From: Shigella phage vB_SdyM_006
Sequence record: MK295204
Direction: 5' to 3' (one strand)
DNA: 64,000 nucleotides
Numbering within the stretch: position 1 is the first letter of the stretch; each line of letters begins with the position of its first letter. The position numbers and the translations under genes were made by a program. Under the pieces are notes generated by a model, which had not been told where the DNA came from, did not search any database, and worked only from the letters and a program-made list of their open reading frames with translations. This document shows positions 2,268 through 26,519 of the stretch, piece after piece.

Positions 2268-2498
2268 TTAATCAAAAAAGTCTTGACGTTTTTCTAGTAG
2301 TTTACGAGCACCAAATAACGCATCTTCGATAGTAGTACCAAATTCTACCACGCATTCTTTGTTATCATTATAGACTTTAACTTCATATCCAATTAATTCG
2401 ACATAAAACGTCATCATTTCATAAATGGGAAGTACGGAGACTTCCCGTACTTTTCCTTTAAACCAAAAACCAACTTCACTTGTCATGATTTCATCCAT
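2268..2498 (-). CDS. hypothetical protein
   Basis: 76 aa ORF, ATG start, overlaps stop of topoisomerase gene (translational coupling). Confidence 0.35.
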   Translation of the reverse strand: MDEIMTSEVGFWFKGKVREVSVLPIYEMMTFYVELIGYEVKVYNDNKECVVEFGTTIEDALFGARKLLEKRQDFFD

Positions 2499-4306
2499 TC
2501 TTTTCTAAGCTCTGCATTATCACCAAATAACATTTCAAAAAGTTCTTTATAATTATCAGGCAGCTCAACAACGTCGTATACCGGTTTTTTAAGAACACGT
2601 TCGTATTCTTCAGAAGTTAATGACGCAAGCCCTTTAATATATCTAGGAGAACTCCAACCTTTTAATTTCGGTTTTTCTTTTTCGTATTCTTCAGCATTAT
2701 AATACCATTTTTGTTCTTTACCTTTTTGGATAATAATTAAAGGTGTTTTACAAAAACGGATTCTTTGTTCTTTATACAGTTCTGGCCATTTAGCAAAAAA
2801 TGCTAATAATGAAGGATAAATTGAACCTTGGCCATCGACATCGGCATCCGTCATAATAGCTATATTATCATACATTAAATTTTCAGGTTTTTCGCCAAGA
2901 ACAAGTCCTGTAATAGCCATGATATCAAATGCTTCTTTACTAGCCATAATATCAACATCTTTCATACCCCAAGTATTTAAAAATTTACCACGTAATGGAT
3001 AACCACCTTGTGTATCTTGGTCTCGAGATGTTAATAATTCATTTAAAGCAGAATCACCTTCTGTTAAAAACAGAGTAGTACCAGTTCCAGGTTTTCCATA
3101 TAAGTTAGCTTTAATATGTTTTGCAACTTTAGCCTTAGCAGCTTTTTTTGCTGCTTTTGTAGCCGCAGCCTGTTCAGCAGCAAGTTTACGTGCTAATACT
3201 GCTTCAATAATTGGCATTAAAACCGCTTCATTTCTCATTAACTGAGAAGCTAATTTTTTAACGTCAATATCGACATGGTTTTTAACTTCACCCCATGTAT
3301 TTGATAATCGTTCTTTTGTTTGACTATCAAACTTAAGATTACTCATATCACGAACAAATAAAAGTAGTGTCAAACATTCTTTAATTCGAGCTTTTGTGAT
3401 ATCAATTTTAAACTTACGCTTAATCATAGGCATAAGTTCAGTACATAATTCGTCCATCAACCAATCAACATGAGAGCCACCTTTTTTAGTATGGATATTA
3501 TTAACATAAGAGATATGTCTGAATCCATCAGGTGAGCGTCCAATGGCGACAGAGCAATTAGTTTGGTCTAAGACAATAGATTCTTCATCAAACTGTTTAG
3601 AATACTTCTTGAAGTTCCCTACGACTTTCTTACCATTAAATTTAAATTCAATATCAGGAAATACAACAGCTAGTGTCATTAAACGGTCAAGTGTCACATT
3701 TTTATATACATCAGATAAACTTGTATCATCAAAATGTTCAAAATCTGGAACAAATTTTACTTCTGTTCCGTGATAAGATGCTTTTTTAGTTTTCCATGAA
3801 ATATTTTCTGCACCGTCAGTACAATTAACTGTAATTTCTGTTTCGCCATTACAAGTCACACCAACAAATAATGTAGAGAAAATATTTGTTAACGCAGAAC
3901 CAACACCATTCATCCCACCAGTTTTACGTTCCGAGTCATCGCCAAAATTACCGCCAGCTCGAGGACGTGTCCATGCAGCAACAGGACCTGGGATTTCATC
4001 ACCTTCAGGAGTTAAGACTAAAGCCTGTGGTAATCCGCGACCATTATCTTTAACAGTTACAGTATCATTTTCGATAGAAACTTCAATTTTATTAGCGAAT
4101 TTAAAATTAGTTCTAATAGCTTCATCTACTGAGTTATCAATAATTTCGTCTATAATCTTAACAATACCAGGAACATATTTTATAGTGGTATACTCACCAA
4201 ACAAAAATTGTTCATTATTTTCTGATGATGAAGAACCAATATACATCCCAGAACGTTTAATGATATGTTCACGGTCACTTAAAATTTTAATTTCGTGTTT
4301 ATTCAT
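2483..4306 (-). CDS. 39: DNA topoisomerase II large subunit (gp39 with gp60-equivalent C-terminus fused)
   Basis: 607 aa; MNKHEIKILSDREHIIKRSGMYIGSS, GyrB-like ATPase motifs (DNGRGLP, GGMNGVGS), close to remembered T4 gp39; continuous ORF covering the region split into 39 and 60 in T4. Confidence 0.85.
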   Translation of the reverse strand: MNKHEIKILSDREHIIKRSGMYIGSSSSENNEQFLFGEYTTIKYVPGIVKIIDEIIDNSVDEAIRTNFKFANKIEVSIENDTVTVKDNGRGLPQALVLTPEGDEIPGPVAAWTRPRAGGNFGDDSERKTGGMNGVGSALTNIFSTLFVGVTCNGETEITVNCTDGAENISWKTKKASYHGTEVKFVPDFEHFDDTSLSDVYKNVTLDRLMTLAVVFPDIEFKFNGKKVVGNFKKYSKQFDEESIVLDQTNCSVAIGRSPDGFRHISYVNNIHTKKGGSHVDWLMDELCTELMPMIKRKFKIDITKARIKECLTLLLFVRDMSNLKFDSQTKERLSNTWGEVKNHVDIDVKKLASQLMRNEAVLMPIIEAVLARKLAAEQAAATKAAKKAAKAKVAKHIKANLYGKPGTGTTLFLTEGDSALNELLTSRDQDTQGGYPLRGKFLNTWGMKDVDIMASKEAFDIMAITGLVLGEKPENLMYDNIAIMTDADVDGQGSIYPSLLAFFAKWPELYKEQRIRFCKTPLIIIQKGKEQKWYYNAEEYEKEKPKLKGWSSPRYIKGLASLTSEEYERVLKKPVYDVVELPDNYKELFEMLFGDNAELRKEWMKS

Positions 4307-4320
4307 TATGTCTCCTTGAT

Positions 4321-4659
4321 TTAAGACGGCATCTTATCAAAAATAAAAACATAAGCATTATGTTCTTCTACCGAAAATGGTTTAACAGAAACTTCTAAAT
4401 ATTTTAAGTCTTCTTCATACATATAAGCAGAAAAATCTTTTATATCTCTTAAAGAATGTTCTTGATGTTTAAGAAGATCTCCTATTAATTTAGGATTCTG
4501 GTCCCAAACTTTAACTGGTTTTCTATATACATGAGTGATTCTAAAAGGTCTGTTATCTAACATCCATTGGTATTTGTTGAAAAGCTTCCACTGTTCAGTA
4601 TATTCTGGATTTAATCTATATAAACAATTTTGACTTAGTTCTTTTGCTGGCACCCACAT
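4321..4659 (-). CDS. hypothetical protein (goF position)
   Basis: 112 aa ORF, ATG start; position downstream of gene 39 as goF in T4; no motif recognised. Confidence 0.3.
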   Translation of the reverse strand: MWVPAKELSQNCLYRLNPEYTEQWKLFNKYQWMLDNRPFRITHVYRKPVKVWDQNPKLIGDLLKHQEHSLRDIKDFSAYMYEEDLKYLEVSVKPFSVEEHNAYVFIFDKMPS

Positions 4660-4673
4660 ATTGTCTCCATACT

Positions 4674-4694
4674 AAAAAGGACCCGAAGGTCCTT
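4674..4694 (-). terminator. intrinsic terminator hairpin (GGACC-UUCG-GGUCC plus U-run on minus strand)
   Basis: aaaaaggacccgaaggtcctt; 7-bp stem, tetraloop, A-run on plus = U-run after hairpin on minus; sits between two minus-strand genes. Confidence 0.6.
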
Positions 4695-4707
4695 AATTCA
4701 GATTAGA

Positions 4708-5100
4708 TTAGAAAAATGCTTCTAATAATTTACAAAGAGATTCTGCTTGTTCTTTTGTTTTAACTTCTAGATTCAATTTAATACTTTTACTAGAGACTTC
4801 AGTCACATCATCTTTTGGTTGTATTTCTAAATGAGAAGAATTATCTAAAGAAACACAGTATTTGTCTAAATCAAAATCAGATAGTACATAGGTGGGATAT
4901 TCTTTTGAATCAAAAATATAACCGCCACCCCAATAAAATTTTTCACATGAAATGACTTGGTCATAATCACGAAGAAATGGTTTTTCTATAAGGTCATTAT
5001 CAATTACATACTTTTTAAAATCTTTAGAAGCTTGATGATTTTTATTACTGGTAAAATCTAAAAATGCTGACATGGATTTAAATCTAAAAGTTTTAAACAT
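4708..5100 (-). CDS. hypothetical protein, member of 3-copy tandem paralog family
   Basis: 130 aa; shares FKFKS-like N-terminal motif and LLxxIEK-like C-terminus with the next two ORFs. Confidence 0.45.
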   Translation of the reverse strand: MFKTFRFKSMSAFLDFTSNKNHQASKDFKKYVIDNDLIEKPFLRDYDQVISCEKFYWGGGYIFDSKEYPTYVLSDFDLDKYCVSLDNSSHLEIQPKDDVTEVSSKSIKLNLEVKTKEQAESLCKLLEAFF

Positions 5101-5102
5101 TT

Positions 5103-5531
5103 TTAAGCCTTTTCAATATAATCTAAAAGTGTATTAATAAGTTCACGTGCTTCTTTAACTGATGTCACAGAAGATGATATTAATAATTCCTTTTTAGGTG
5201 TATCAGATTCTTTAAAATCACTTAGTTCTAAATATTCTAGAATACTCGAATCTAACTGAGACCCGATCATAGGAAAAACATAGCTTTCTTCGCCGAAATC
5301 GTCAAAAACTTGCCCATTAGAAAATACAAGTTTTAAACCTGGTAAAGGATCATCAACATTAGCTTGCTCTAATTCATAATCTTCAAAATGGAAAAGTTCA
5401 AATGGGGTGTCAAATAAATTATGATAATTAATAAACCGGATAAATCTTTGTCTAACTGGGATATCATGTCGCTCATAATGTCTAATCAACATATCAGAAG
5501 ATTTAATTTTAAATTTACCTAAACTAGTCAT
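5103..5531 (-). CDS. hypothetical protein, member of 3-copy tandem paralog family
   Basis: 142 aa; MTSLGKFKIKSSD... ...LLDYIEKA. Confidence 0.45.
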   Translation of the reverse strand: MTSLGKFKIKSSDMLIRHYERHDIPVRQRFIRFINYHNLFDTPFELFHFEDYELEQANVDDPLPGLKLVFSNGQVFDDFGEESYVFPMIGSQLDSSILEYLELSDFKESDTPKKELLISSSVTSVKEARELINTLLDYIEKA

Positions 5532-5533
5532 AA

Positions 5534-5947
5534 TTATTTCTCGATAAAATCTAAAAGTTTAATAATTAAAGCCTTTGCATCAGCTTTAGTAATAATAGGG
5601 CTGTCAACTACAATACCGTGACTTAAATTTAATTCAGCAGGACATATATAAGTGAGCATCACTGGATTTAAACGTGTGGCATTGTTTTCAAGATTAAAAA
5701 TATAGTAATCTAAATCTGCATCAGTAAATACCATGCCGTTTTCAAAAACAACTTCAATATCATTCAAATAATAGTCTTTAGATTCTACAATTCTAATATT
5801 AAAAGCAGAATCTCTAAGATTGTTTGACACTAAAAACTCGGCAAATTTAAGTCTTGAGATATTAAAAGTTTCTGCTCCAACATAATCTTTAATACTTTTT
5901 TCTGATTTGAACTTAAAAGTTCCTAGGTCTTTAATTAATTTGCTCAT
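5534..5947 (-). CDS. hypothetical protein, member of 3-copy tandem paralog family
   Basis: Track ORF 5534..5965; start moved to in-frame ATG at 5947 (AAGG Shine-Dalgarno, ATGA overlap with upstream gene); ...LGTFKFKSEK... ...LLDFIEK. Confidence 0.45.
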   Translation of the reverse strand: MSKLIKDLGTFKFKSEKSIKDYVGAETFNISRLKFAEFLVSNNLRDSAFNIRIVESKDYYLNDIEVVFENGMVFTDADLDYYIFNLENNATRLNPVMLTYICPAELNLSHGIVVDSPIITKADAKALIIKLLDFIEK

Positions 5948-6885
5948 AATACGGCCTTTGCCCATTTAGAAGTTTTGGATTTGATTTGTTGATTCAACTC
6001 ATCAATAACAACACACATTAAGTCTTTGTCATTAACCAGTTCATATTCAGGTTTACTACGATAATTCAGCCATAATGTATCGATTAAACAGTTAATAACA
6101 TCAGCTGCTTCACCAGTAGCGCATTCATCAACTTCATCTTGACGAAATGTAGCTTTAGAATATTCGCCAACTTCTTCTACTAAGTGTGCAAATACAATTG
6201 CTAAATCACGTTCAGGTGCTTTAATACACATTTTAACAGTTGGACTAATGTCTAAAATGGGTTCACAATCGAAAGATTCAATTGTCATTTTATCTAGCTC
6301 TTTTTGGTCTGCGTATTGAACAATGCTTAAATGTGTTAATTCAAAAAATTCTTTTTCGCGCTTATTGTATTGTTCTGTTCCAAAATCACCTAAATGGGCA
6401 AATGACCAAAACATTTCACCTTGGTTGTCAAAGTATTCGCCATTTAGACTAATAGATGTAGGATGACCATCTTTATCTGCTTCCAAAATAGTTAAAGTGT
6501 TAATACCTATTTTTGAATATTTTGCATTTAAAATAGGGTATAGCTCCTTTTGTTCACGTGTAATTTGTTGTGGAAGAGCTACAAAAGTATATGTACGTCC
6601 GGCCTGAAGTAATTTACGACGTGTGAATGCTTGTGCTAAACTAGATTTTGATAAAACACACCAAAACTGGTCTTTTTCATAGTCTTCTAATTCAATAATT
6701 TGATTATTGACAAGAATTTTAGACGCGCCTTCAAAGTCAATACCGTTTTGATTTATAGAAACGGTTTCTAAAATTTGAACTTCCATATTATCAAATAGCT
6801 CAATTCCACGTTCTTCTAAAATGTGTGAAAACGAACCAGTTGAAGCAGAAGAAAGATTTAATGTATATAATGCACCGTTATTCAT
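5944..6885 (-). CDS. hypothetical protein with C-terminal MazG-like NTP-pyrophosphohydrolase motif
   Basis: 313 aa; C-terminal segment LAIVFAHLVEEVGEYSKATFRQDEVDECATGEAADVINCLIDTL resembles MazG EExxE/ExxD helices; N-terminal 220 aa unassigned. Confidence 0.4.
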   Translation of the reverse strand: MNNGALYTLNLSSASTGSFSHILEERGIELFDNMEVQILETVSINQNGIDFEGASKILVNNQIIELEDYEKDQFWCVLSKSSLAQAFTRRKLLQAGRTYTFVALPQQITREQKELYPILNAKYSKIGINTLTILEADKDGHPTSISLNGEYFDNQGEMFWSFAHLGDFGTEQYNKREKEFFELTHLSIVQYADQKELDKMTIESFDCEPILDISPTVKMCIKAPERDLAIVFAHLVEEVGEYSKATFRQDEVDECATGEAADVINCLIDTLWLNYRSKPEYELVNDKDLMCVVIDELNQQIKSKTSKWAKAVL

Positions 6886-6889
6886 AATA

Positions 6890-7105
6890 TTATCCTCTTA
6901 AATTTTCAAAAAAGAACTCAGTTTTAGCATCAGTTCCAGTTGAACTGATAACACGTGTATAAACTTCAACGACTTTATTGTTTTCAAACACATAAAGATT
7001 TGTTAAATGAATCATATGAGAAACACAAGATTCTTTTTGGGTCACAGACATTGTATTTGAATATAAAACATCTTCAAATTGGTCACGACTAATTTCGATT
7101 TTCAT
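6890..7105 (-). CDS. hypothetical protein
   Basis: 71 aa ORF, ATG start. Confidence 0.3.
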   Translation of the reverse strand: MKIEISRDQFEDVLYSNTMSVTQKESCVSHMIHLTNLYVFENNKVVEVYTRVISSTGTDAKTEFFFENLRG

Positions 7106-7152
7106 TATAAACTCCGTTGTATTTGTTTTGATGTTTGTATAGTACTAAATAA

Positions 7153-7173
7153 AAGAGGTCTTGTAAACCTCTT
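7153..7173 (-). terminator. putative intrinsic terminator hairpin
   Basis: aagaggt-cttgtaa-acctctt followed by T/A-rich runs on both strands; intergenic after dexA stop. Confidence 0.4.
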
Positions 7174-7180
7174 TTTTGAA

Positions 7181-7861
7181 TTATTTTTTAATTGATACAG
7201 GATCGATATCTTGTTCGTCTGGGACTTCTTCTAATCCAAGAGCATATCGTTCTGCAGTTTTAAGCATAATAATGTCTTTAGCACAGTCATGAATAGAGTC
7301 ATGCAAAACAAACCCGTTTAAAACACCTTTACGAATAGGACACATTGTCATATCACGGTCTAATAAAAGCTTTCTAATAGAAGTTCTTGTGTCATTTTGG
7401 TTCCAGAAAACAATGAATTCTTTTTTAAATGTATCAATATCTTCGATCTTAACACCAGAATCAAGTTCACGTTGTGTTATCATGTGTTTTAAAATTGGAA
7501 AGTCAAAAGACATACCACGAGAATATCCTTGAGACTTCCAGAAATCAATTCCTTGAGAGTCTAAATATTCTTTTAATATATCTAAACCTTCATTAATAGA
7601 CACATCCTGTGGGGACCTGGCTAAATTCTTTTTAGCTTCTTGTGATTGTCCTTTCCACCATTCAACAGTAGATTTATAGAAAACTCTTTTTCCTTTTTGT
7701 GAAGCCAAATCAAATTTAATTCGGAGACCACGTTTAACTAAATCTTCAAACGATTCAACTATAGTTGGGTCTGAATTAAATGTTATAATAGAAAGGTCGA
7801 TAACAGCCGAATCTGGCTGATTACCAAAAGTTTCTAAGTCAAATACAAAATCAATTGCCAT
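7181..7861 (-). CDS. dexA: exonuclease A (DnaQ-like 3'-5' exonuclease)
   Basis: Track ORF 7181..7951 begins at an upstream alternative start; in-frame ATG at 7861 gives MAIDFVFDLETFGNQ (DnaQ exo motif I), 1-nt TAATG overlap with dda stop; T4 order dda-dexA. Confidence 0.7.
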   Translation of the reverse strand: MAIDFVFDLETFGNQPDSAVIDLSIITFNSDPTIVESFEDLVKRGLRIKFDLASQKGKRVFYKSTVEWWKGQSQEAKKNLARSPQDVSINEGLDILKEYLDSQGIDFWKSQGYSRGMSFDFPILKHMITQRELDSGVKIEDIDTFKKEFIVFWNQNDTRTSIRKLLLDRDMTMCPIRKGVLNGFVLHDSIHDCAKDIIMLKTAERYALGLEEVPDEQDIDPVSIKK

Positions 7862-9183: not shown

Positions 9184-9473
9184 ACTATTTTCACCCTTTT
9201 AACATAAAGTGTATCTAACATTCTCTTATAGAGTGTCGTCAAATATTCCGGTTTGTTGATTATTGTTTTTTCCTCTCGTTTAAACCAAAGGAATCGATGA
9301 TATTTTATATTGTATTTTGGTTTAAGCTCTTTAGAAAGATATTCTTTAAAACGTTTAAAGGCCTCATTAGAGAGACCTTTTGTTTTATATATCATTAGAA
9401 CTTGAGTATCAGGGTCTTGACATATAACATCAAATCCTGAAGAGTCTTTGTAGACTATCGCATAATAATACAT
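9180..9473 (-). CDS. hypothetical protein (dda.1 position)
   Basis: 97 aa, ATG start, ATGA overlap with dda. Confidence 0.35.
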   Translation of the reverse strand: MYYYAIVYKDSSGFDVICQDPDTQVLMIYKTKGLSNEAFKRFKEYLSKELKPKYNIKYHRFLWFKREEKTIINKPEYLTTLYKRMLDTLYVKRVKIV

Positions 9474-10089
9474 AAAGTTCTTTTCCTACTCTTTTATAAG
9501 AAGAATCTAATGAAATACCTAAATATAATTTTAATTTATCTAATTTAGATAGCTTATTAAATCTTTCTCCAGACTTAATAATAGTTTTTAATATACTAAT
9601 ATCTTTATCTTTAGATTTAACACATTTTTTATATTCTTTATTAAGACGTTTCATTTGCGCTTCTTTTAATCTAACAGATTCTGCTAATTGTTTATCATTT
9701 GGACAACACGCTAAACGCTTTTTAAGTTGGTTCAATTTTATTTGAGCTCTATCAAGTCCAGCTTTTGTTGTCTCTTTTGAGTTTTCACGTGATTTAATTA
9801 TAGCTTTAAGACCTTCTATATCTCGGTCGCCTTTATATTGATTATAAATTCCTTTGATAGGAATAACATTCCCTTTAACATAACCTTTGGAATTATCGAA
9901 TCGTTCAAAAGTAAGAGCATTCGGGTCATTTCGTTTAAATGACACAGAAATCGGTTCATCTGAATAAGCACACTTTGTTTGCTCACAAATATTTTGAACG
10001 TATCGCTTGGATAAATTAAACTCTTTATTGCGGGCTTTAGCAGACTGTTTTAAGTGCTTGAATTTACTACTTAATTGTTTAGAATCCAT
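9430..10089 (-). CDS. hypothetical protein, basic, coiled-coil C-terminus
   Basis: 219 aa, ATG with strong AGGAGG Shine-Dalgarno; occupies the srd/modA/modB region of T4 but no ART or sigma motif recognised. Confidence 0.4.
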   Translation of the reverse strand: MDSKQLSSKFKHLKQSAKARNKEFNLSKRYVQNICEQTKCAYSDEPISVSFKRNDPNALTFERFDNSKGYVKGNVIPIKGIYNQYKGDRDIEGLKAIIKSRENSKETTKAGLDRAQIKLNQLKKRLACCPNDKQLAESVRLKEAQMKRLNKEYKKCVKSKDKDISILKTIIKSGERFNKLSKLDKLKLYLGISLDSSYKRVGKELYVLLCDSLQRLFRI

Positions 10090-10145: not shown

Positions 10146-10340
10146 CTAATTAATGTAAACTATTTTTCCATTGATAGAGTATGTGATGGAAATTTCTTTT
10201 TTAAATCTATCTTTAATGCTTTCCGGGTAAATAGGAAGAATAGAATCGACAATTCTTAATTGGTCTTCTACACTCATAGAAGGACTAACAGGAAAGCCTT
10301 GTTTTTGAAGGATTCTAGACATTTGCATTAATGTTAGCAT
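10146..10340 (-). CDS. hypothetical protein
   Basis: 64 aa ORF, ATG start, stop-start overlap with gene 56. Confidence 0.3.
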   Translation of the reverse strand: MLTLMQMSRILQKQGFPVSPSMSVEDQLRIVDSILPIYPESIKDRFKKEISITYSINGKIVYIN

Positions 10341-10864
10341 TAATAACCTCGGCTTTGACGATCAAAGTTCTCTGCATTTTTTAAATAATACAAAACAAAG
10401 ATTTCTTCTGAAGACATACCAAGTCCAATAAGTTTATTCATAAAGAAATGCACTTGGTCAATCAATTCAAATTTTACTTCAAGTTGATCTGCTTCCGATA
10501 ACTCATCAAAAGGTTTTTTAGACATTTCTTCATGGCGAGCTTTCCAAGGTTTCCATACTGCTGATGCTTCTTTATCGCCATTAGACATACCGCCTAAAGA
10601 TGTATATAATTCACGGGTTTCGTCGTTTAAATAGTCATCTTGACTACGCATCCATTTAAGGATATCGCCACAAGTTTTTAATTCATCAGGTGACTGATTA
10701 TTAAATGGTTTATTTTTTGCTAAAAACACTTGCAATGATTTTTGCATATCAAGCATAACTTGTAAAGGATCACGTCCTGTTGAAACAATATCAGAATATG
10801 CTTCACGTGCTTTTGATAAAGAGTCTTCATCTACTAAAGTTGAACATACATTAAAATGAGCCAT
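10340..10864 (-). CDS. 56: dCTP pyrophosphatase gp56 (MazG-like)
   Basis: 174 aa; MAHFNVCS...DPLQVMLDMQKSLQ...ETRELYTSLGGMSNGDKEASAVWKPWK...EEIFVLYYLKNAENFDRQSRGY closely matches remembered T4 gp56. Confidence 0.8.
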   Translation of the reverse strand: MAHFNVCSTLVDEDSLSKAREAYSDIVSTGRDPLQVMLDMQKSLQVFLAKNKPFNNQSPDELKTCGDILKWMRSQDDYLNDETRELYTSLGGMSNGDKEASAVWKPWKARHEEMSKKPFDELSEADQLEVKFELIDQVHFFMNKLIGLGMSSEEIFVLYYLKNAENFDRQSRGY

Positions 10865-10872
10865 AATTTTCC

Positions 10873-11436
10873 TTATTCATAATGGATTAAAGTTTTTTGT
10901 GGTTGAGTAACGTTAATAACAGAACAAATTTTATCACATGACGGGTCTAAAGCTGAAATCCAAAAACCTGAGTCGTTCCATAAAGGCTCTTCAGAATATG
11001 CATAGATATCACCGTTTCGGTTTGTAGCAATATAATTTTTATCCTTTTTTATAAAAAGGGTTTTGCCAAAATATTCAACTTGTTTATATATCTCTTCAAC
11101 ACAATGGTCCCAAATAATTGAAGGGTCTTCTTGTTTAATTAAAAAATCTTTTGCTTCTTGTTCGGTATCAAAATAAAGACCTTCTGGTTTATGTGAACCG
11201 ACATAATAAAAAATTCTGTCTGGTGTATTTACTTGTTCTAAATCTTTTAATCTGTATGTATTAAATGCACCATTATCCCAGTTCACTTTAACACAATATC
11301 CATTAGTACCTTGATATTCTTCAGTAATTGTCCCTTCGACATGTGGATTTTCACGTTCTGGATTGGTAGAGTACCATTCAGAAGTTTTAGAAATACGTAC
11401 ACGATTACCTGGATAAAGCTGGTTTTTCTCTAACAT
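10873..11436 (-). CDS. hypothetical protein, tandem paralog family (copy A)
   Basis: 187 aa; N-terminal GNRVRISKTSEW...NP..EGTIT motif and C-terminal NYIATNRNGDIY shared with next ORFs. Confidence 0.45.
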   Translation of the reverse strand: MLEKNQLYPGNRVRISKTSEWYSTNPERENPHVEGTITEEYQGTNGYCVKVNWDNGAFNTYRLKDLEQVNTPDRIFYYVGSHKPEGLYFDTEQEAKDFLIKQEDPSIIWDHCVEEIYKQVEYFGKTLFIKKDKNYIATNRNGDIYAYSEEPLWNDSGFWISALDPSCDKICSVINVTQPQKTLIHYE

Positions 11437-11651
11437 TATACTTTCCTTAAACTTTTAGTCCAATGCACATTAATAGAGCATTTATCAATATAAAATATAT
11501 CACCAGGTGTAACCCAAATATACCCAGGATTTAAATATGGCCTTTTAGTGAATCCATATAAACGCCCATCAGATTCCATAGCAACATATTTTACATCATC
11601 ATTAACAGATAACTGTAGACCTAAATAATCTACAGTTTTTGTATTAACCAT
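11436..11651 (-). CDS. hypothetical protein, truncated paralog (C-terminal domain only)
   Basis: 71 aa; DYLGLQLSVNDDVKYVAMESDGRLYGF resembles C-terminal halves of flanking paralogs. Confidence 0.35.
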   Translation of the reverse strand: MVNTKTVDYLGLQLSVNDDVKYVAMESDGRLYGFTKRPYLNPGYIWVTPGDIFYIDKCSINVHWTKSLRKV

Positions 11652-12201
11652 ATTCTACAAGAGAATTTTTAGCTGTAAACGGTGCAGCACTGTTAAAACT
11701 ACCAATCCAATAGCAATTTTTATCGTAGGCCCGCCATTTTTGTAATAGATTATCGTATTCTGGTTTATCCCAGAATCCATTTACAATACCATCGACATTA
11801 GTAGCAATATAATTAATTGATTCCGGGACTTCAAATTCTTTGCCTAAGTAGTTCAGAACTTTTGTTTTGTCTTTAGGTCTTTCAACAAAAGAGCCCCAAT
11901 CAATAGTTTTTAATTGCAAATTACGTAAATGTTCTTTTGCTTCTTGTTCGGTGTCAAATACTTGAAGTGTTTCATTATTAAGAACACCATACACAAACAC
12001 TGGGTTGTTTACTAAATACAGATCTTCTTCTTTGTATTCATTATAAGACCCAAGGTCCCATTTTACACCAATAGGAAGAGTATTTCCAACAACAATGTCA
12101 GTTATAGTTCCTTCACAATTTGGATTAGCCTCTGTATTACCAGCAGCAATCCAATTAGAATTAGAACTAATTTTTACACGATCGCCTTTTTTAAATTTCA
12201 T
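11644..12201 (-). CDS. hypothetical protein, tandem paralog family (copy B)
   Basis: 185 aa; MKFKKGDRVKISSNSNW...NPNCEGTITD; FDTEQEAKEHL shared with copy A (FDTEQEAKDFL). Confidence 0.45.
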   Translation of the reverse strand: MKFKKGDRVKISSNSNWIAAGNTEANPNCEGTITDIVVGNTLPIGVKWDLGSYNEYKEEDLYLVNNPVFVYGVLNNETLQVFDTEQEAKEHLRNLQLKTIDWGSFVERPKDKTKVLNYLGKEFEVPESINYIATNVDGIVNGFWDKPEYDNLLQKWRAYDKNCYWIGSFNSAAPFTAKNSLVEYG

Positions 12202-12776
12202 TATAATTCCACCAAAGAATTTTTAGGATTTTCGATAACTTCTGCTCTAATAAGCAGTTCTACTTCTATGTCGCCACACTCGTCAGACCAAATACCGTCA
12301 TCTTCGTCATAAGTAGGTTTATGCATAAACGAATAAATATCGCCATCTTCATCAGTAGCAATATAATAATGGTCATCTTTAACTAATAATTCAACACCAA
12401 GATAATTAACAGATTTATATCCAGGAATATGTTGTTTATACGAAACTTTAAGTTTTGGTTCTTTATATGTAAGTTTTTCTAATTCCAAATTAGCCGTATG
12501 TAGTGAAGCAAATGTGCCATTTTTAGGGTCACCAAAAAATCCAATAGTGTAAAGAATTTTAGGCTCTATATTTTTAGCAGAAACTAAATCTTCTCCACGA
12601 TAAGTATTCGTGTAGCCCGAGTCCCATTGAACCTTGATAAAATGAGTGTCTTCATCGATTTGAGGGTACAATTCAATAACTATTCCTTTTACATCAGATG
12701 GGTTGTGGTCTGACTTGCCAAAATATTGTGAGCCAGGAGCAAGTAATACTTTATCACCGATATTAAATTCGCTCAT
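12201..12776 (-). CDS. hypothetical protein, tandem paralog family (copy C)
   Basis: 191 aa; MSEFNIGDKVLLAPGSQYF...NPSDVKGIVIE; HYYIATDEDGDIYSF. Confidence 0.45.
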   Translation of the reverse strand: MSEFNIGDKVLLAPGSQYFGKSDHNPSDVKGIVIELYPQIDEDTHFIKVQWDSGYTNTYRGEDLVSAKNIEPKILYTIGFFGDPKNGTFASLHTANLELEKLTYKEPKLKVSYKQHIPGYKSVNYLGVELLVKDDHYYIATDEDGDIYSFMHKPTYDEDDGIWSDECGDIEVELLIRAEVIENPKNSLVEL

Positions 12777-12786: not shown

Positions 12787-13239
12787 TTATTTTAAGATAT
12801 TTGAAGCTAATTGGATATCATAAAAGGATAACCCAATTAAGCCATTAACTTGAATGAAGTTGCCTTCTAGGCCATATACATAATGCTGAATAGAATCATC
12901 TAATACAACATATTTTTCGACTTTATGGTCTAAAACATACCTTAAGATACTTACACCGCGTGATCGTCCGCCACCAGTATAATCTATTGTATCATAGATG
13001 TCTATTCCTAGAGCTTCAGAGATTTCTTTTTCTCGCTCTTTGCATTTGGGGTCTCCAGACGGTCTGGCCCAAGAAGAAATTAAAACAACTTTAGCGTCGA
13101 CACACGATAATAGGTCATGGAAACGTTGCAATTCATAGTGTCCAATATAACCTAAACGTGTTCTAACTGCTAAATCATCGTCAAAACATGATCGTTGGCT
13201 ATTTAACACACCGTCAATATCAAGAAATATCACATTCAT
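12787..13239 (-). CDS. HAD-superfamily hydrolase-like protein
   Basis: Track ORF 12787..13254; start moved to ATG at 13239 (TAATG coupling); MNVIFLDIDGVLN = HAD motif I (DxDG). Confidence 0.45.
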   Translation of the reverse strand: MNVIFLDIDGVLNSQRSCFDDDLAVRTRLGYIGHYELQRFHDLLSCVDAKVVLISSWARPSGDPKCKEREKEISEALGIDIYDTIDYTGGGRSRGVSILRYVLDHKVEKYVVLDDSIQHYVYGLEGNFIQVNGLIGLSFYDIQLASNILK

Positions 13240-13424
13240 TAGTTTTCTTCCCATGCATCACATTCTGTTGTGTCATCACGAACTACGTCTTCGTCAATTA
13301 ACACACCACAACCGTATTCTTCAACATCTTTTAAAGCCTCTTCAATTGTTTCAGCTTCAACTTCATAAATCCGTCGTCCGCGAACATATCCTGAAAAGTT
13401 TACTCCAACTTTAAATTTGGCCAT
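13239..13424 (-). CDS. hypothetical acidic small protein
   Basis: Track start is TTG; first ATG at 13424 with GGAG Shine-Dalgarno; 61 aa. Confidence 0.3.
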   Translation of the reverse strand: MAKFKVGVNFSGYVRGRRIYEVEAETIEEALKDVEEYGCGVLIDEDVVRDDTTECDAWEEN

Positions 13425-19490: not shown

Positions 19491-20405
19491 TTAGATTTCC
19501 CAAATTGGGCCTTGAACTATAATATCTTCGTATTTAGGTAATGCATAAATGCATTGTACATTACATTTAAAATATATAAATTCTGCTAAACCTGGATGGA
19601 ATACTTTTTCTGGGTTTTCTTCATATATGATAGTTGGTTTAGACTTCAATGCATGGTAATAATTAGGCTTATTTAATTTTAATAATTCACAATCAGGATA
19701 TTTTTCTTTATCCCAAGAATCATTAGGGTCTGTTATAACCAATTTCAAATCATATCTTTTACATAGTTTATACACATAATCAAAATCATAACATTTATCT
19801 GATATCCTAAACGGAAAGAATACTGTATTCTTCCAATCAAAGTCTATACAAGATTGTTGCATAAACTTCTCAGGAACACCAGGACGAATTACTTCTTGTG
19901 TGACAAGTATTTTATCACTATACGCCCCATAACTAACTAGAACGTCTTTCTGGCACTTATTTAAGACTGTTGTATAGATACTTGAGTTAACAGATTCAAC
20001 ATCAGTATAAATGAACTCGTCTATATATGATCTTGGATTCAAAGGGTCTTTAGTAATATTAAAATTATAAAATACTGGAAAGGTTCCTTTATATCCTGTT
20101 ATATCAGAAACTACTGCATCTAAATGGTAAAATTCGGCAATAGAATCGATAATAAATGTATTATATTCCCAGAAATATTTTCGAGTTTTATATGCATTTT
20201 CTTGATAAACAACTTCTTCAAAAATCACGTTAGGAAAATATTCTTTAAGTTCAGTTATATCTTCGCATTGTAAACTATGAGGAATTACAATTACATCTCC
20301 ATCTTGGTACCGATTTAAATGTAATTGAAGATTACCGTCTTTTAACAGGGAGTATTTCCCTGTTTTATAAGACCTCATAGAATAGATAGGCACAATTAAA
20401 TTCAT
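19491..20405 (-). CDS. hypothetical protein in beta-gt position (candidate transferase, unproven)
   Basis: 304 aa, ATG start; occupies the slot of beta-glucosyltransferase next to gene 42 but shows no resemblance to remembered T4 beta-gt. Confidence 0.3.
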   Translation of the reverse strand: MNLIVPIYSMRSYKTGKYSLLKDGNLQLHLNRYQDGDVIVIPHSLQCEDITELKEYFPNVIFEEVVYQENAYKTRKYFWEYNTFIIDSIAEFYHLDAVVSDITGYKGTFPVFYNFNITKDPLNPRSYIDEFIYTDVESVNSSIYTTVLNKCQKDVLVSYGAYSDKILVTQEVIRPGVPEKFMQQSCIDFDWKNTVFFPFRISDKCYDFDYVYKLCKRYDLKLVITDPNDSWDKEKYPDCELLKLNKPNYYHALKSKPTIIYEENPEKVFHPGLAEFIYFKCNVQCIYALPKYEDIIVQGPIWEI

Positions 20406-20415
20406 AATTATTCTC

Positions 20416-21108
20416 TTATAGAAATGAATTTACATATTCTATATCACGTTCAAAAATATGCGCAGAAACCATTGAATGTGTGTAATGGCCAATTTCTACG
20501 TTACATTCTGAAGCAATATATTCCATTAATTTACCTTGTAAGTAAATATCAAGTTGTAATACTATAGCACAATTTTGAGAACGCATATGAGTATGGGCAT
20601 ATAATTTATTATCACGAATATAATATGTGACAGAATCAGTACATGGATATTCCAATGTTTCGTCGTCAAGTGATAATAATGCTTGGTCTTGTTCTTGAAG
20701 AATTTGAAAAACAACACGTCTCGAACCAGGTTTTTCTTTAAGTTCTTTAAGTAAAACTGGAAGTTGAGCTACAATACGAGGACCATAGAATGTATTGAAG
20801 TTTTCTGGAAGGATATCGCTTTTAGGCTTATCAATAAATTTAGCAACATTAGGATATTCTTTAAATGCTTCAATAGCGTTGGTCCCACCAGAAATCATAA
20901 ATTGCCAGAAATCTTCTGCGTACTTATAATCAATACGGTTTATTTTTTCGTCACTAAATTTATATGTAGAAGGGTCCATTACACGAAATGTTAATGACCC
21001 TATTTCTCTACATGGCCCAATACGAGAATCTACTTTAAATTCATATAGATCAATAACGGTTTCATTAACAGCTTTAAAAGCTTCTTCAAAAGTATTTCTG
21101 ATAATCAT
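20416..21108 (-). CDS. 42: dCMP hydroxymethylase-like (thymidylate synthase superfamily) gp42
   Basis: 230 aa; EYPCTDSVTYYIRD (active-site Cys region) and RSQNCAIVLQLD resemble gp42/TS motifs; position as T4 gene 42. Confidence 0.7.
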   Translation of the reverse strand: MIIRNTFEEAFKAVNETVIDLYEFKVDSRIGPCREIGSLTFRVMDPSTYKFSDEKINRIDYKYAEDFWQFMISGGTNAIEAFKEYPNVAKFIDKPKSDILPENFNTFYGPRIVAQLPVLLKELKEKPGSRRVVFQILQEQDQALLSLDDETLEYPCTDSVTYYIRDNKLYAHTHMRSQNCAIVLQLDIYLQGKLMEYIASECNVEIGHYTHSMVSAHIFERDIEYVNSFL

Positions 21109-21479
21109 AACATTTCCTGTAATTTTTTAGAGTAATTCATTAAAAACACTAATAATGGTTGTGCCTCTGGTGGTGTTTGTTGTAATTTTTTAGATTCAAC
21201 GACACCATTATACACTGGAAATCCTTTAGCCTTTTTGGTTTGACCTATTTTAATGGCTAATTTATTACGTGCATTAAACAATTCGATCATTTGTTTATCT
21301 ATTTCTTGAATAGCTTTACGATCTTCGTCTAATGTGTCTTTAACATGCCCTTTTAATTGTTCTTTTAATTGTTCTTTGATTAATCTTTGATTACATTCTT
21401 TAATAAATCCTTTAGGAAACGGTGGTACTTCTATCCCAGGATAAATAGGCCAAACCGGTGCGCCATCTATATGATGCAT
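21105..21479 (-). CDS. chorismate mutase-like (AroQ class) protein
   Basis: 124 aa; residues ~45-124 DRKAIQEIDKQMIELFNARNKLAIKIGQTKK...YSKKLQE align to AroQ catalytic positions (R, R, K, E, S, Q); ATGA coupling with gene 42. Confidence 0.45.
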   Translation of the reverse strand: MHHIDGAPVWPIYPGIEVPPFPKGFIKECNQRLIKEQLKEQLKGHVKDTLDEDRKAIQEIDKQMIELFNARNKLAIKIGQTKKAKGFPVYNGVVESKKLQQTPPEAQPLLVFLMNYSKKLQEML

Positions 21480-21664
21480 TATTTCACCTCTATTGAAATG
21501 TTTATACGTTCTACAGGTCTAGGAAGTTCTAAATAAATATTATTTCCTTTAGACCTTACTTTATATCCTTGGGCTTTAAATGTATCTATAATGATTTGTT
21601 TACAGCTACTTGAATAAATCACACCATTTTTATTAGGAGTATCGGTCTCAATTAATTTTACCAT
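21479..21664 (-). CDS. hypothetical protein
   Basis: 61 aa, ATG start, 1-nt overlaps on both sides. Confidence 0.3.
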   Translation of the reverse strand: MVKLIETDTPNKNGVIYSSSCKQIIIDTFKAQGYKVRSKGNNIYLELPRPVERINISIEVK

Positions 21665-21873
21665 TATTTACCTACTATTTTGCCAGTTTCTGGTCCTTCA
21701 TACAAAGTGGACTTTACTATAAAGTCACTTAACCCTTTATTATATCTTTTAAACTTTGACACTTCAGAATCACATATTAATTGAGCTAGATTCTCTTGAT
21801 ACATCATTAAGCAGGGAATAACCCTGCTTAAAAAGGTTTTCTTTGTATTAATTTTCTGGATATCTTGATTCAT
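21664..21873 (-). CDS. hypothetical protein
   Basis: Track start is GTG at 21882; first ATG at 21873; overlaps 3' end of next ORF. Confidence 0.25.
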   Translation of the reverse strand: MNQDIQKINTKKTFLSRVIPCLMMYQENLAQLICDSEVSKFKRYNKGLSDFIVKSTLYEGPETGKIVGK

Positions 21874-23014
21874 CGTCAGCACCGTCTAAAACTTTAATTT
21901 CAATTTCGTCTGGACGACGATCATTTTTAGATAATTGACGTTTATAATATCGTTCACAATATTTACAAGTCGTTCCGCAGATTTCGTTAGCACAATCAAA
22001 ATCAGGGTGTTTAAACCATCGTTTCTCTAAAAATCCATCTAACAATGATGTTTCTAAATACACCTGGTGTTCATGATCTAATTCTGATTTACCATTATAA
22101 ATTGTTTCTAATGGTTTCCAAAGTTCAAGTAAATTACCTGTGAATTGTTCTGATGCATAGGCTTCTAGAACTTTAACAATATATTCTGTTGTGCCTGTAC
22201 GTCCAGAAACTTTAAATTGAGAAATACCAATAGAACGATATAACTCTAAATCTTGTGGACGAACAAATCGAGTTCTAAGCCAGTTAAACGGGTCTGTATC
22301 ACGGGCTTTAATACAATGTTGCATTGGATATCCACCTAAAGATTGAGCATCTTCAGCTGTTATATCTGTAGAATGGAAAATATAACAAGAATCTCTGTAA
22401 GAACAGTGTGTTGTATATCCTTTACCAGCATTAGAACAAAATTCATTAACTAAGACTTCAAAAATAATATTATTTTTATTACAGAACTCAGCTGCACGTT
22501 TTAAGAACGAAACACTTCGGTTTTTATGAATACCACAACAAACTTTTTTAATATTATATTGGTCATGAAGATATTTTATTTGTGTGACAGCATCAACGTG
22601 TAGAATAGTCGAAACTTCAAATTGAATATGTTTATTTACTTCACGGATGATTTCCATAATAATTGGATTGGCAACAGTCACACGATAAACGCCAATACTC
22701 CATAAATATTGAACATAATCTTGGATGGCTTTCTTTTTCCAATCCTGTAGTTCACGTTTAGAGCCAGGGTTAATCGTGTTCAAAGTATAGTTGAAACATA
22801 TTCCTAAATCATTACAACGTTGTACGTATATTTCTAGTTGTTCGTCTTTGACATCCGGTAATCTAAAATCTGGTCGTGCTGCAGCAAAAGCCATTGCACG
22901 TGTACTTCCATAAACTTCATTAATAACACTATTAGGATATTTTTCGTTTAATTCAACGATTTTATCAAGTAAAGCCAAATCAAAATTTGTTCCTACTTTA
23001 AATGTATTTTTCAT
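21848..23014 (-). CDS. peptidase U32-family-like protein (RlhA/TrhP/UbiU-type, candidate Fe-S hydroxylase)
   Basis: Track start TTG 23032 lies in terminator hairpin; ATG at 23014 has AAGGA Shine-Dalgarno; GISQFKVSGRTGTTEY resembles U32 signature G[VI]xx[FL]K[IV]EGR; EFCSNAGKGYTTHCS Cys motif; C-terminal CxxxxCxxxCxxC. Confidence 0.45.
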   Translation of the reverse strand: MKNTFKVGTNFDLALLDKIVELNEKYPNSVINEVYGSTRAMAFAAARPDFRLPDVKDEQLEIYVQRCNDLGICFNYTLNTINPGSKRELQDWKKKAIQDYVQYLWSIGVYRVTVANPIIMEIIREVNKHIQFEVSTILHVDAVTQIKYLHDQYNIKKVCCGIHKNRSVSFLKRAAEFCNKNNIIFEVLVNEFCSNAGKGYTTHCSYRDSCYIFHSTDITAEDAQSLGGYPMQHCIKARDTDPFNWLRTRFVRPQDLELYRSIGISQFKVSGRTGTTEYIVKVLEAYASEQFTGNLLELWKPLETIYNGKSELDHEHQVYLETSLLDGFLEKRWFKHPDFDCANEICGTTCKYCERYYKRQLSKNDRRPDEIEIKVLDGADDESRYPEN

Positions 23015-23030
23015 TTTAGTCCTTATTACC

Positions 23031-23049
23031 AAAAAGGCCTTTCGGCCTT
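23031..23049 (-). terminator. intrinsic terminator hairpin (AAGGCC-GAAA-GGCCUU plus U-run)
   Basis: aaaaaggcctttcggcctt; near-identical copy at 47483-47502. Confidence 0.55.
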
Positions 23050-23052
23050 ATA

Positions 23053-23259
23053 TTATTTTTTCTTTAACTGTGTTGCTGCGTCTTCTAATTTAAGAGACAT
23101 ATCTTTAAAATTAACATCTTTGCCTTGAATACCAGAAACAATGCCAGAAACAAGAATCATAAATGCTAATAATACCGCAAACAATAATACAAAAACCGAA
23201 CACGCTACACCAATAAGAATACCTAATACAAGATTTTTAAAATAGTTTAATACTTTCAT
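23053..23259 (-). CDS. small membrane protein (imm-like by position)
   Basis: 68 aa, hydrophobic LVLGILIGVACSVFVLLFAVLLAFMILVSGIV; lies between genes 42 and 43 as imm in T4. Confidence 0.35.
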   Translation of the reverse strand: MKVLNYFKNLVLGILIGVACSVFVLLFAVLLAFMILVSGIVSGIQGKDVNFKDMSLKLEDAATQLKKK

Positions 23260-23819
23260 AATTGTCCTAATTTCGTGTTAATATAATTTGTTACATCTGC
23301 ATAAGAATAACCAGATAGAACATTATTATTTGAATCATGTTCTAATAACTTAAAATTTCTAATACCAAATTCTTCATAAAACATGTCATACACCGTAATG
23401 ATATCATTGAACTGTTCTTTTGATAACTTAATTAAGTCATCTTCAAAATCAGAATTAATTTTATTTCTAGTTAATCCGATAACCAAACATTTGTTTTTTA
23501 AATTAATAAGGTCCATAACATAATTATTAAATGTTTCTTGAGTCTCTTTAATAACAAATGATTTACCATGGTGTTTACGATAGATATAATAAACCATATT
23601 ACTTAAAAAGCAACGGTCTAATATATACTTTTTAGATGGGTCTAAATGATTTAGCATTGTATCAAAAATTGCTACTTCATTACGAGTAGCAATAGTAAAT
23701 AATCCATCTGAAGTTTTCTTAGGGAACTCTAATAAAGTAAATCCTTCATTATTGATTAAGTGTTGTATTAGAGTTGTTTTACCAGTATTATCAGGTCCTT
23801 CAATAGCAACAATATTCAT
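23256..23819 (-). CDS. P-loop kinase (thymidylate/nucleoside-kinase-like)
   Basis: 187 aa; MNIVAIEGPDNTGKTTL Walker A at N-terminus typical of small nucleotide/sugar kinases; ATGA coupling. Confidence 0.5.
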   Translation of the reverse strand: MNIVAIEGPDNTGKTTLIQHLINNEGFTLLEFPKKTSDGLFTIATRNEVAIFDTMLNHLDPSKKYILDRCFLSNMVYYIYRKHHGKSFVIKETQETFNNYVMDLINLKNKCLVIGLTRNKINSDFEDDLIKLSKEQFNDIITVYDMFYEEFGIRNFKLLEHDSNNNVLSGYSYADVTNYINTKLGQL

Positions 23820-24193
23820 TTTATCTCCGGAGTATATGGTTTGGCCGATTCTAAAGTAGACATTCTAACATGGTTTTTAAATGTTTGTGGGTCCATTGCT
23901 TTGTCATCGATAATCCAGTCATAAGATGGTTTATGGGTCAAAAGCTCATGATATTTCAATCCAATTTTATTAAGATTAATAACGAGTCCAGGAACTATTT
24001 CTGATGCTATTTTACCAGGTCCAACAGAAGTCATACCACGAGAAGTATAAAGTGTGATATGATGGCCCTGGTCGTACAGGGCGTTAATCATAGCTACCAT
24101 TTCTTCATCAGGTACAAAGTTCTCATAATCTCTATTATTATTCCATAATGTGATTGTATTATCAATGTCAAAAAACAGTTTTAAAGGTTTCAT
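23816..24193 (-). CDS. HAD-superfamily phosphatase
   Basis: 125 aa; LFFDIDNTIT = HAD motif I DxDxT; ATGA coupling with flanking genes. Confidence 0.55.
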   Translation of the reverse strand: MKPLKLFFDIDNTITLWNNNRDYENFVPDEEMVAMINALYDQGHHITLYTSRGMTSVGPGKIASEIVPGLVINLNKIGLKYHELLTHKPSYDWIIDDKAMDPQTFKNHVRMSTLESAKPYTPEIK

Positions 24194-25839: not shown

Positions 25840-25886
25840 TTCAAATCCTTATTAATTTAGTGTATAAGAATAGTATCATTAAATTC

Positions 25887-26519
25887 TTATAAGCTCTCAC
25901 TTTTAAGGGCTTTACCTAATGACCCACCAGGATGAAATGTTAAAAAGTCTTGACGTGTAAATCCACGTTCTGCAGATAGATTAATAGCAAAGGTGTCAAT
26001 TAGTGCTAAAAGAACTGTTGTGCTTGTAGTTGGAGCGAGATTGTTCTCATCTGATTCTACAACGTTACCAGTACAAAAATCATAGTCAAAAATAGAACGT
26101 GTACCTTGGTATAGGTCTTCATTACAATGTAACAAGATTTGTTTAACATTTGGTCTAATCTGACGTAGATGTTGAGCAGCATATAAAAGTTCTTGTGTTT
26201 TACCAGAACGAGAAATATGAATAATAACATCATTAGGACCAATAAAACCTGCATCGCCGTGAGAATAATGAGCTGTATTTAAATACATACTTGGAATTCC
26301 AAGTGAAGCAAATGTTTCTGAAGCCTTAGTGGCGATATTAGCATTTTTACCAATGCCTGTTATGATTACTCGACTTTCATAGTTAGATAAACCAGGCGCT
26401 CTTAGAACGTCTAATATTTGATTATACTTATCGGCATCCATTGTAATAGTAAGTCCAAGCGCATGTAAAGTTTTAGCTTGAATCATAATAGAACTACAAG
26501 CTCTTTTAATTGGATTCAT
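25887..26519 (-). CDS. SIS-domain sugar-phosphate isomerase (KdsD/GutQ-like arabinose-5-phosphate isomerase)
   Basis: 210 aa; VIITGIGKNANIATK...HISRSGKTQEL...APTTSTTVLLALIDTFA...HPGGSLGKAL aligns with KdsD SIS domain. Confidence 0.65.
   Translation of the reverse strand: MNPIKRACSSIMIQAKTLHALGLTITMDADKYNQILDVLRAPGLSNYESRVIITGIGKNANIATKASETFASLGIPSMYLNTAHYSHGDAGFIGPNDVIIHISRSGKTQELLYAAQHLRQIRPNVKQILLHCNEDLYQGTRSIFDYDFCTGNVVESDENNLAPTTSTTVLLALIDTFAINLSAERGFTRQDFLTFHPGGSLGKALKSESL

What the first reader, a model, noticed from the sequence alone, without database searches (positions are those of the whole stretch)
5944..6885. 313-aa protein with a C-terminal MazG-like domain in addition to gp56
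The last ~90 aa carry an EEVGE...E..D MazG-type motif while the N-terminal 220 aa are unassigned. The genome already encodes the MazG-like dCTPase gp56, so a second MazG-like module fused to a novel domain may cleanse another nucleotide pool or counter nucleotide-based host signalling.
Basis: partly seen in the sequence, partly recalled or inferred. Interest (0 to 1): 0.4.

Follow-up and report, generated by a model that had tools for sequence, protein, structure and literature searches.

The report
Second MazG-like pyrophosphatase with orphan N-terminus
A T4-like Proteus phage encodes, besides its known dCTPase, a second and so far untested nucleotide pyrophosphatase-type domain. This domain is common in related phages, but here it is fused to a 200-residue region found only in this phage genus; it is a real but fairly ordinary uncharacterised phage enzyme.

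Summary
Window 5944-6885 (- strand) is a real 313-aa gene in a T4-like Proteus phage (genus Bragavirus, 97% identical to phiP4-3). It lies between cef and the topoisomerase gene 39.

Residues ~209-313 form a MazG-like all-alpha NTP pyrophosphohydrolase domain:
- PHROG 1247 matches at E 3.7e-19.
- The metal-binding motif E238-x-x-E241 ... E259-x-x-D262 is conserved across 54 relatives.
- Pfam itself gives no hit for this protein.

A gp56 dCTPase ortholog is present separately at 10340-10864.

The same ~105-aa module occurs in about 300 phage genomes, usually as a stand-alone gene at the same cef-39 position. Pharokka-type pipelines already label it "MazG-like pyrophosphatase". It does not appear in the listed T4-type Escherichia phages.

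The N-terminal ~200 aa occur only in Proteus Bragavirus phages. They have no sequence relatives among 1.84 billion representative proteins, evolve faster, and are predicted at low confidence as two SH3-like beta units.

Substrate and role are untested. The likeliest reading is an active early-expressed (d)NTP pyrophosphohydrolase with a lineage-specific accessory region. It is a new variant of a known kind, of modest interest.

The parts
5944..6885 (-). Whole 313-aa gene including stop. It is annotated 'hypothetical protein' in all Bragavirus records and belongs to PHROG 21738 (unknown function).
6316..6885 (-). N-terminal region, aa 1-190. It is an orphan, predicted as two beta-rich units (about aa 1-105 and 105-190) with weak resemblance to SH3-like barrels. 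It is found only in Proteus Bragavirus phages.
6262..6315 (-). Linker, aa 191-208. It is predicted disordered, is poorly conserved, and varies in length between Bragavirus phages.
   Evidence: pLDDT < 50 for 191-208
5947..6261 (-). C-terminal MazG-like all-alpha NTP pyrophosphohydrolase domain, aa 209-313, with helices 214-222, 228-247, 256-277 and 286-312.
   Evidence: (dN/dS 0.009-0.078)
6163..6177 (-). EEVGE, aa 237-241. This is the first half of the metal-binding motif (E238-x-x-E241); E238, G240 and E241 are invariant in 54 sequences.
   Evidence: aligned in register with the EEVGE/EELGE of 1vmg and 2gta
6100..6111 (-). EAAD, aa 259-262. This is the second half of the motif (E259-x-x-D262), with 17 residues between E241 and E259. 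D262 is invariant and E259 nearly so.
6893..6899 (-). Shine-Dalgarno-like AAGAGGA, with 7 nt between it and the ATG, lying in the end of cef.
   Evidence: read directly from the sequence
7139..7167 (-). Promoter-like site (TTTACA, 17 nt spacer, TACTAT) upstream of cef, overlapping a hairpin after dexA. It is a possible T4-type early promoter for cef, this gene and three downstream genes.
   Evidence: This is a consensus match only. A 'promoter' feature is listed under the match (query 1631-2878, i.e. window 5930-7177, which includes cef) in the Pm5461 record.
6890..7105 (-). cef (modifier of suppressor tRNAs), the gene immediately upstream. It is the conserved left anchor of the syntenic region.
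4708..5947 (-). Three tandem paralogous genes (137, 142 and 130 aa; PHROG 15715/23695, unknown function) immediately downstream. The first overlaps the stop of the 313-aa gene (ATGA).
4677..4694 (-). Terminator-like hairpin after the third paralog; a possible end of the transcription unit.
10340..10864 (-). gp56-type dCTP pyrophosphatase (174 aa). This is the other all-alpha NTP-PPase of the genome and a separate gene, listed as comparator.
   Evidence: It is not detected by the module's own HMM.

Best explanation
The gene encodes a two-part protein made early in infection. The C-terminal 105 residues are a catalytically competent MazG-type (all-alpha) nucleoside-triphosphate pyrophosphohydrolase. 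By analogy with solved family members, it pairs into dimers or tetramers. It would bind Mg2+ through E238, E241, E259 and D262 (plus E254) and cleave the alpha-beta bond of a (d)NTP-like substrate to give the monophosphate and pyrophosphate. K304, K307 and W308 of the last helix are likely phosphate or base contacts. It acts alongside gp56, not instead of it, on a different and still unknown nucleotide, either pool-shaping or house-cleaning. The N-terminal ~190 residues are a fast-evolving accessory region confined to Proteus Bragavirus phages. They are probably two small SH3-like beta-barrel units that tether or regulate the enzyme through a host- or phage-specific partner. What is shown: the gene, the domain boundaries, the fold class, motif conservation, the distribution, and stronger purifying selection on the C-terminal half. 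What is inferred: catalysis, oligomerisation, early expression, substrate class and the role of the N-terminus.
Confidence: 0.6

Rival explanations
1. The enzyme hydrolyses a signalling nucleotide rather than DNA/RNA precursors. Candidates are (p)ppGpp, (p)ppApp or an immune second messenger. It would blunt the stringent response or abortive-infection defences, and the variable N-terminus would adapt it to the Proteus host.
For: A phage MazG-like protein, Atd1, hydrolyses ppGpp and protects against TIR effectors (bioRxiv 10.1101/2022.06.09.495361). The gene sits in the early cef-goF-motB-type region, rich in host-takeover genes. The N-terminus is fast-evolving and lineage-specific, as expected of a host-interaction part. 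A dedicated dCTPase already exists in the genome.
Against: The PcCB7V ORF I take to be Atd1 is an 86-aa PRA-PH-like protein with no detectable relation to this module beyond the EExxE motif (hhalign probability 0.4%). PcCB7V has no member of this family. The cyanophage MazG once proposed for this role does not cleave magic-spot nucleotides (PMC6850273, title and abstract). PADLOC and anti-defence libraries were not searched.
Confidence: 0.2
2. The MazG-like domain mainly serves the phage's modified-cytosine DNA pathway. It would be a second excluder of an unwanted dNTP (for example dCTP or dUTP backup, or unglycosylated or aberrant 5-hydroxy-dCTP species), working with gp56 and the 5hodCMP synthase cluster.
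For: The window carries a thymidylate-synthase homolog, nucleotide kinase, sugar-nucleotide genes and gp56. Bragaviruses are listed among Straboviridae predicted to make arabinosyl-5-hydroxycytosine (PMC13326640). DCTPP1/RS21-C6, a modified-dCTP pyrophosphatase, is among the fold matches at 22% identity.
Against: The module is spread over many genera, including Aeromonas and Vequintavirinae-like phages, so it does not appear tied to one modification system. It is not named among RB69's pathway genes in the passages I read, and no RB69 or other T4-type Escherichia phage appears in the hit rows shown. It is about 13 kb from the modification cluster.
Confidence: 0.12
3. The protein is not primarily an enzyme. 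The MazG-like bundle would serve as an oligomerisation or ligand-sensing scaffold, as dimeric dUTPases act as signalling proteins, and the N-terminal barrels would carry the real activity, for example binding RNA polymerase or mRNA-metabolism factors as GoF-like neighbours may do.
Against: All four metal ligands plus lysines and a tryptophan are invariant over distant relatives, most of which have no N-terminal domain at all. That pattern is what is expected of a working active site. The GoF and Tudor similarities are all below significance.
Confidence: 0.08

Closest known systems
Single-domain MazG-like NTP pyrophosphohydrolases (SSO3215 1vmg, B. subtilis YpjD 2gta, integron iMazG 2q5z/2q73, mouse RS21-C6/DCTPP1 2a3q/2oie)
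   Same: Size of about 100 aa, an all-alpha bundle, and E-x-x-E ... E-x-x-D aligned in register. They are the best sequence-profile and fold matches, with up to 27% identity (1vmg).
   Different: No Pfam MazG hit for this protein. It has its own conserved signature (P-x-R before helix 1, GEAADVINC, K-x-x-KW at the C-terminus) and, here, a 205-aa N-terminal fusion. The substrate is unknown.
PHROG 1247 'MazG-like pyrophosphatase' (stand-alone ~105-112-aa genes of Klebsiella, Enterobacter, Serratia and Aeromonas T4-like phages)
   Same: Direct homologs (33-54% identity) in the same cef-39 position with the same invariant residues.
   Different: Those are stand-alone, or carry unrelated 60-100-aa N-terminal extensions. 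The Proteus protein adds about 205 aa with no detectable relatives.
T4-type gp56 dCTPase/dUTPase
   Same: Same superfamily by fold, per Table 1 of PMC13326640 for RB69 gp56. It is encoded in the same genome (10340-10864) and is an early nucleotide-pool enzyme.
   Different: No detectable sequence relation to the module. It is 174 aa, belongs to a different PHROG (173) and sits at a different locus. Its role in excluding dCTP is established knowledge; the role of the module is not.
MazZ of cyanophage S-2L (7ody)
   Different: MazZ works with PurZ and DatZ in 2-aminoadenine genomes (own knowledge). I did not look for purZ or datZ genes in the window. There is no closer similarity than to other MazG-like proteins.
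Atd1 (Pectobacterium phage PcCB7V MazG-like ppGpp hydrolase)
   Same: A small phage MazG-like catalytic domain proposed to counter host responses.
   Different: It belongs to a different subfamily. The PcCB7V candidate ORF is PRA-PH-like with no significant similarity, and PcCB7V lacks this family.

Membership tests
All-alpha NTP pyrophosphohydrolase (MazG-like) superfamily | Four/five-helix all-alpha bundle fold | tested here: met
All-alpha NTP pyrophosphohydrolase (MazG-like) superfamily | Metal-binding motif E-x-x-E, then 12-28 residues, then E-x-x-D (motif definition from own knowledge of the family literature) | tested here: met
   E238-x-x-E241, 17 residues, E259-x-x-D262. These are invariant or nearly invariant in 54 sequences and aligned in register to 1vmg and 2gta.
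All-alpha NTP pyrophosphohydrolase (MazG-like) superfamily | Mg2+-dependent hydrolysis of (d)NTP to (d)NMP + PPi; dimer/tetramer assembly | not testable with these tools
Pfam MazG (PF03819) | Score at or above the curated gathering cut-off | tested here: not met
   No hit for the protein or its C-terminal 114 aa at E <= 10. 27 of 54 relatives hit only weakly (best E 4.9e-4).
PHROG 1247 (MazG-like pyrophosphatase) | Significant match to the family HMM | tested here: met
   E 3.7e-19, aa 202-312. The Aeromonas phage 31 homolog's N-terminus also belongs to this PHROG.
gp56 dCTPase orthologs | Sequence similarity to gp56 (PHROG 173) and position near dda/srd | tested here: not met
   The module's HMM finds only itself in the window. 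gp56 is a separate gene at 10340-10864.
Atd1-type phage ppGpp hydrolase | Homology to the PcCB7V MazG-like ORF | tested here: not met
   hhalign probability 0.4%; no family member in the PcCB7V genome. I inferred which ORF is Atd1 from its annotation and its position next to the nucleotidyltransferase.
GoF/Frd2-like small proteins (PHROG 13003, PF03197), for the N-terminal region | Significant profile similarity | tested here: inconclusive
   hhalign E 0.002 / probability 14% for aa 92-142, E 0.057, E 0.081. The N-terminus holds the same genomic position as the GoF-like gene in other phages.
SH3-like / Tudor-like small beta-barrels, for the N-terminal region | Five-stranded barrel fold match | tested here: inconclusive

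The most novel reading that the evidence does not exclude
The conserved cef-39 MazG-like module is a phage counter-defence enzyme that destroys a host alarmone or immune nucleotide. The genus-specific N-terminal tandem barrels, perhaps a diverged GoF-like transcription/mRNA modulator fused onto it, would target it to a Proteus-specific partner such as RNA polymerase or a defence complex. That would make a new architecture coupling signal-nucleotide hydrolysis to host-machinery binding.
Probability: 0.12. Interest if true: 0.65.

Novelty: new variant of a known kind. Interest (0 to 1): 0.3.

Why it matters
Many T4-like phages outside the classical T-even group, and some Vequintavirinae-like phages, carry this small MazG-type gene, yet none has been assayed and Pfam does not cover it. 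Knowing its substrate would show whether these phages need a second nucleotide-pool filter beside gp56, or whether they degrade host alarmones or immune nucleotides. The Proteus fusion gives a natural handle: the orphan N-terminus should point to the enzyme's partner. If the enzyme proves to be a plain house-cleaning NTPase, the result is only a better annotation.

Tried and rejected
1. N-terminus as a paralog of the three downstream tandem genes, suggested by an eye-caught motif 'G..F.D....Y.F'. hhalign gave probability 0.3%, so this was rejected at sequence level.
2. Internal duplication of the N-terminus. hhalign of the two halves gave E 0.04, probability about 1%, so it is unproven. The AF2 model does show two beta-rich units.
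3. N-terminus related to the N-terminal extensions of the Aeromonas, Providencia and metagenomic MazG fusions. The scores were within the range of shuffled sequences, so this was rejected. The extensions look independently acquired. One of them (P0019) clearly is the neighbouring 75-aa gene fused on (E 1e-25).
4. N-terminus as a GoF/Frd2-like protein. All comparisons were sub-threshold, so this is kept only as a lead. The apparent link between the downstream paralogs and GoF-like proteins (probability 62%) did not hold with better alignments.
5. An exhaustive HMMER search with the N-terminal profile found nothing outside the family itself; the one extra hit was a repeat artefact. The PDB sequence search with the full protein found nothing.
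6. Atd1 as the closest characterised relative was rejected.
7. Literature searches for this gene family in Straboviridae or Bragavirus found nothing specific.

Full report
**What the window is.** The region is typical T4-like: topoisomerase gp39 (2483-4306), cef (6890-7105), dexA, dda, an srd-like gene and gp56, all on the minus strand. The 313-aa protein is 97% identical to a 'hypothetical protein' of Proteus phage phiP4-3 (Straboviridae, genus Bragavirus). The DNA of 4300-7200 is 98.1% identical to that phage.

**The gene is real.**
- ORF 5944-6885 (-) starts at an ATG, with 7 nt separating it from the AAGAGGA upstream. It ends in ATGA, which overlaps the start of the next gene.
- Seven phage records (four distinct Proteus phages) and six metagenomic clusters encode full-length orthologs of 311-315 aa.
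- Nei-Gojobori dN/dS is below 1 in both halves: 0.13-0.38 for aa 1-190 and 0.009-0.078 for aa 209-313. Both parts are therefore coding, and the C-terminal part is much more constrained.
- A promoter-like TTTACA-17-TACTAT lies upstream of cef, and a terminator-like hairpin follows the third downstream gene. Together they suggest one early unit of cef, this gene and three paralogs, but these are consensus matches only.

**The C-terminal domain is MazG-like.**
- Pfam finds nothing, even at E <= 10.
- PHROG 1247 'MazG-like pyrophosphatase' matches aa 202-312 at E 3.7e-19.
- tblastn finds the domain in 244 phage records. A Klebsiella homolog finds 307 records, including Vequintavirinae-like phages such as 4MG, SSE121 and KpS8.
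- A profile of ten relatives searched against PDB sequences returns YpjD (2gta), 5ie9, SSO3215 (1vmg) and iMazG (2q73, 2q5z) as its five best hits. Each is only E 0.12-0.45, but both acidic motifs align in register.
- Scanned one by one, 27 of 54 family members weakly hit Pfam MazG and 16 hit PRA-PH.
- AlphaFold2 on a 54-sequence alignment gives block-mean pLDDT of 74-93 for aa 211-310 and four long helices.
- Foldseek was weaker (no E <= 1e-3) but pointed the same way.
- E238, G240, E241, D262, K304 and W308 are invariant. R226, E254, G258, E259, C266, D269 and K307 are nearly invariant.
- E238-x-x-E241, 17 residues, E259-x-x-D262 fits the family's metal-binding motif (motif definition from my own knowledge). 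I therefore take the domain to be an active enzyme.

**gp56 is separate.** The 174-aa protein at 10340-10864 matches PHROG 173 'nucleoside triphosphate pyrophosphohydrolase' at E 2e-36 and is annotated dCTP pyrophosphatase in phiP4-3. The module's own HMM finds no second copy in the window and does not detect gp56.

**Synteny and architecture.** The module sits between cef and gp39 in eight phages examined: Serratia 92A1 and X20, Pectobacterium PM2, Klebsiella 311F, Enterobacter AS6, Aeromonas 31, Stenotrophomonas IME13 and Providencia PSTCR6.
- In five of them it is a stand-alone 104-115-aa gene. In the other three it carries an N-terminal extension, giving proteins of 170-211 aa.
- In most of these phages a GoF/Frd2-like gene lies between cef and the module. 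In Proteus phages the N-terminal 205 aa take that place.
- One metagenomic fusion (P0019) has as its N-terminus the 75-aa gene that is a separate upstream neighbour in Aeromonas phage 31 and IME13 (E 1e-25). Fusion of the module with neighbouring small genes therefore does happen.

**The N-terminal region.**
- tblastn at E <= 10 finds it only in Proteus phages.
- An exhaustive profile search of 1.84 billion representative proteins finds only its own cluster plus a repeat artefact.
- PHROG gives only its own family, 21738.
- AF2 models (pLDDT 65-78) show two beta-rich units and a disordered linker at aa 191-208.
- I regard 'tandem SH3-like barrels' as plausible, not shown.
- Similarity to GoF/Frd2-like proteins stays below significance (E 0.002, probability 14%). 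Similarity to the downstream paralogs and to other lineages' extensions is absent.

**Function.** No experiment exists for this subfamily, and I found no paper on it.
- The best-supported reading is an early (d)NTP pyrophosphohydrolase with an unknown substrate and a lineage-specific accessory N-terminus.
- The signalling-nucleotide reading has a precedent in Atd1. However, the PcCB7V ORF that I take to be Atd1 belongs to another subfamily, and that phage lacks this family. Cyanophage MazG does not cleave magic-spot nucleotides (PMC6850273).
- A link to the predicted arabinosyl-5-hydroxycytosine pathway of Bragaviruses (PMC13326640; cluster seen) is possible. The module's wide distribution argues against a pathway-specific role.

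**Verdict.** This is a new architectural variant of a known enzyme kind. The module is already labelled by PHROG-based annotation in other phages, while the Proteus protein is still 'hypothetical'. Interest is modest.

Noticed in passing
window 19491-26984 (- strand): A gene cluster next to DNA polymerase: a thymidylate-synthase homolog (20416-21108), a chorismate-mutase-II-like protein (21105-21479), a peptidase-U32-family protein (21848-23032), a thymidylate-kinase-like protein, an NTP-transferase+kinase fusion (24190-25839) and a SIS-domain protein (25887-26519). PMC13326640 lists Bragaviruses among phages predicted to make arabinosyl-5-hydroxycytosine via such a TS homolog, but never mentions U32 or chorismate mutase. 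U32 enzymes with prephenate carry out O2-independent hydroxylations (own knowledge), so this pair might be an anaerobic route to 5-hydroxycytosine.
   Followed up: partly
window 4708-5947 (- strand): Three tandem paralogous genes (137, 142 and 130 aa; PHROG 15715/23695, unknown function) directly downstream of the 313-aa gene. They are conserved in phiP4-3 and SJ_PmiM. A first hhalign hint of a GoF-like relationship (probability 62%) was not reproduced with better alignments.
   Followed up: partly
window 10873-12776 (- strand): Another tandem family upstream of gp56: 187-, 185- and 191-aa paralogs that begin with a similar SH3-like-looking motif ('G..V.I....W...'), plus a 71-aa gene matching their C-terminal part (PHROG 11307/1972, unknown function).
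   Followed up: no
window 5947-6261 versus L001 (phiP4-3): Synonymous divergence between the window and phiP4-3 is higher in the C-terminal domain (pS 0.34) than in the N-terminal region (pS 0.14), even though the protein is more conserved there. This may mark a recombination boundary inside the gene.
   Followed up: no
window 2483-4306 (- strand): The topoisomerase large subunit is one intact 607-aa ORF here. phiP4-3 annotates it as two CDSs, and SJ_PmiM has a homing endonuclease inserted in it.
   Followed up: no
window 9430-10089 (- strand): The 219-aa protein annotated 'anti-sigma factor' (Srd, PHROG 1400, E 8e-50) also matches HNH/endonuclease VII-type PHROGs in the same N-terminal stretch (E 8e-21 to 4e-8).
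   Followed up: no
window 12787-13254 (- strand): A 155-aa protein (PHROG 1818, unknown function) has a weak C-terminal match to a PHROG labelled Sir2 (NAD-dependent deacetylase), E 7.7e-7.
   Followed up: no
L014 2104-3985 (Pectobacterium phage PcCB7V): An 86-aa PRA-PH-like ORF (QQG33500.1) lies two genes from a nucleotidyltransferase. It is probably the published Atd1, though the paper text I read gives no accession.
   Followed up: partly
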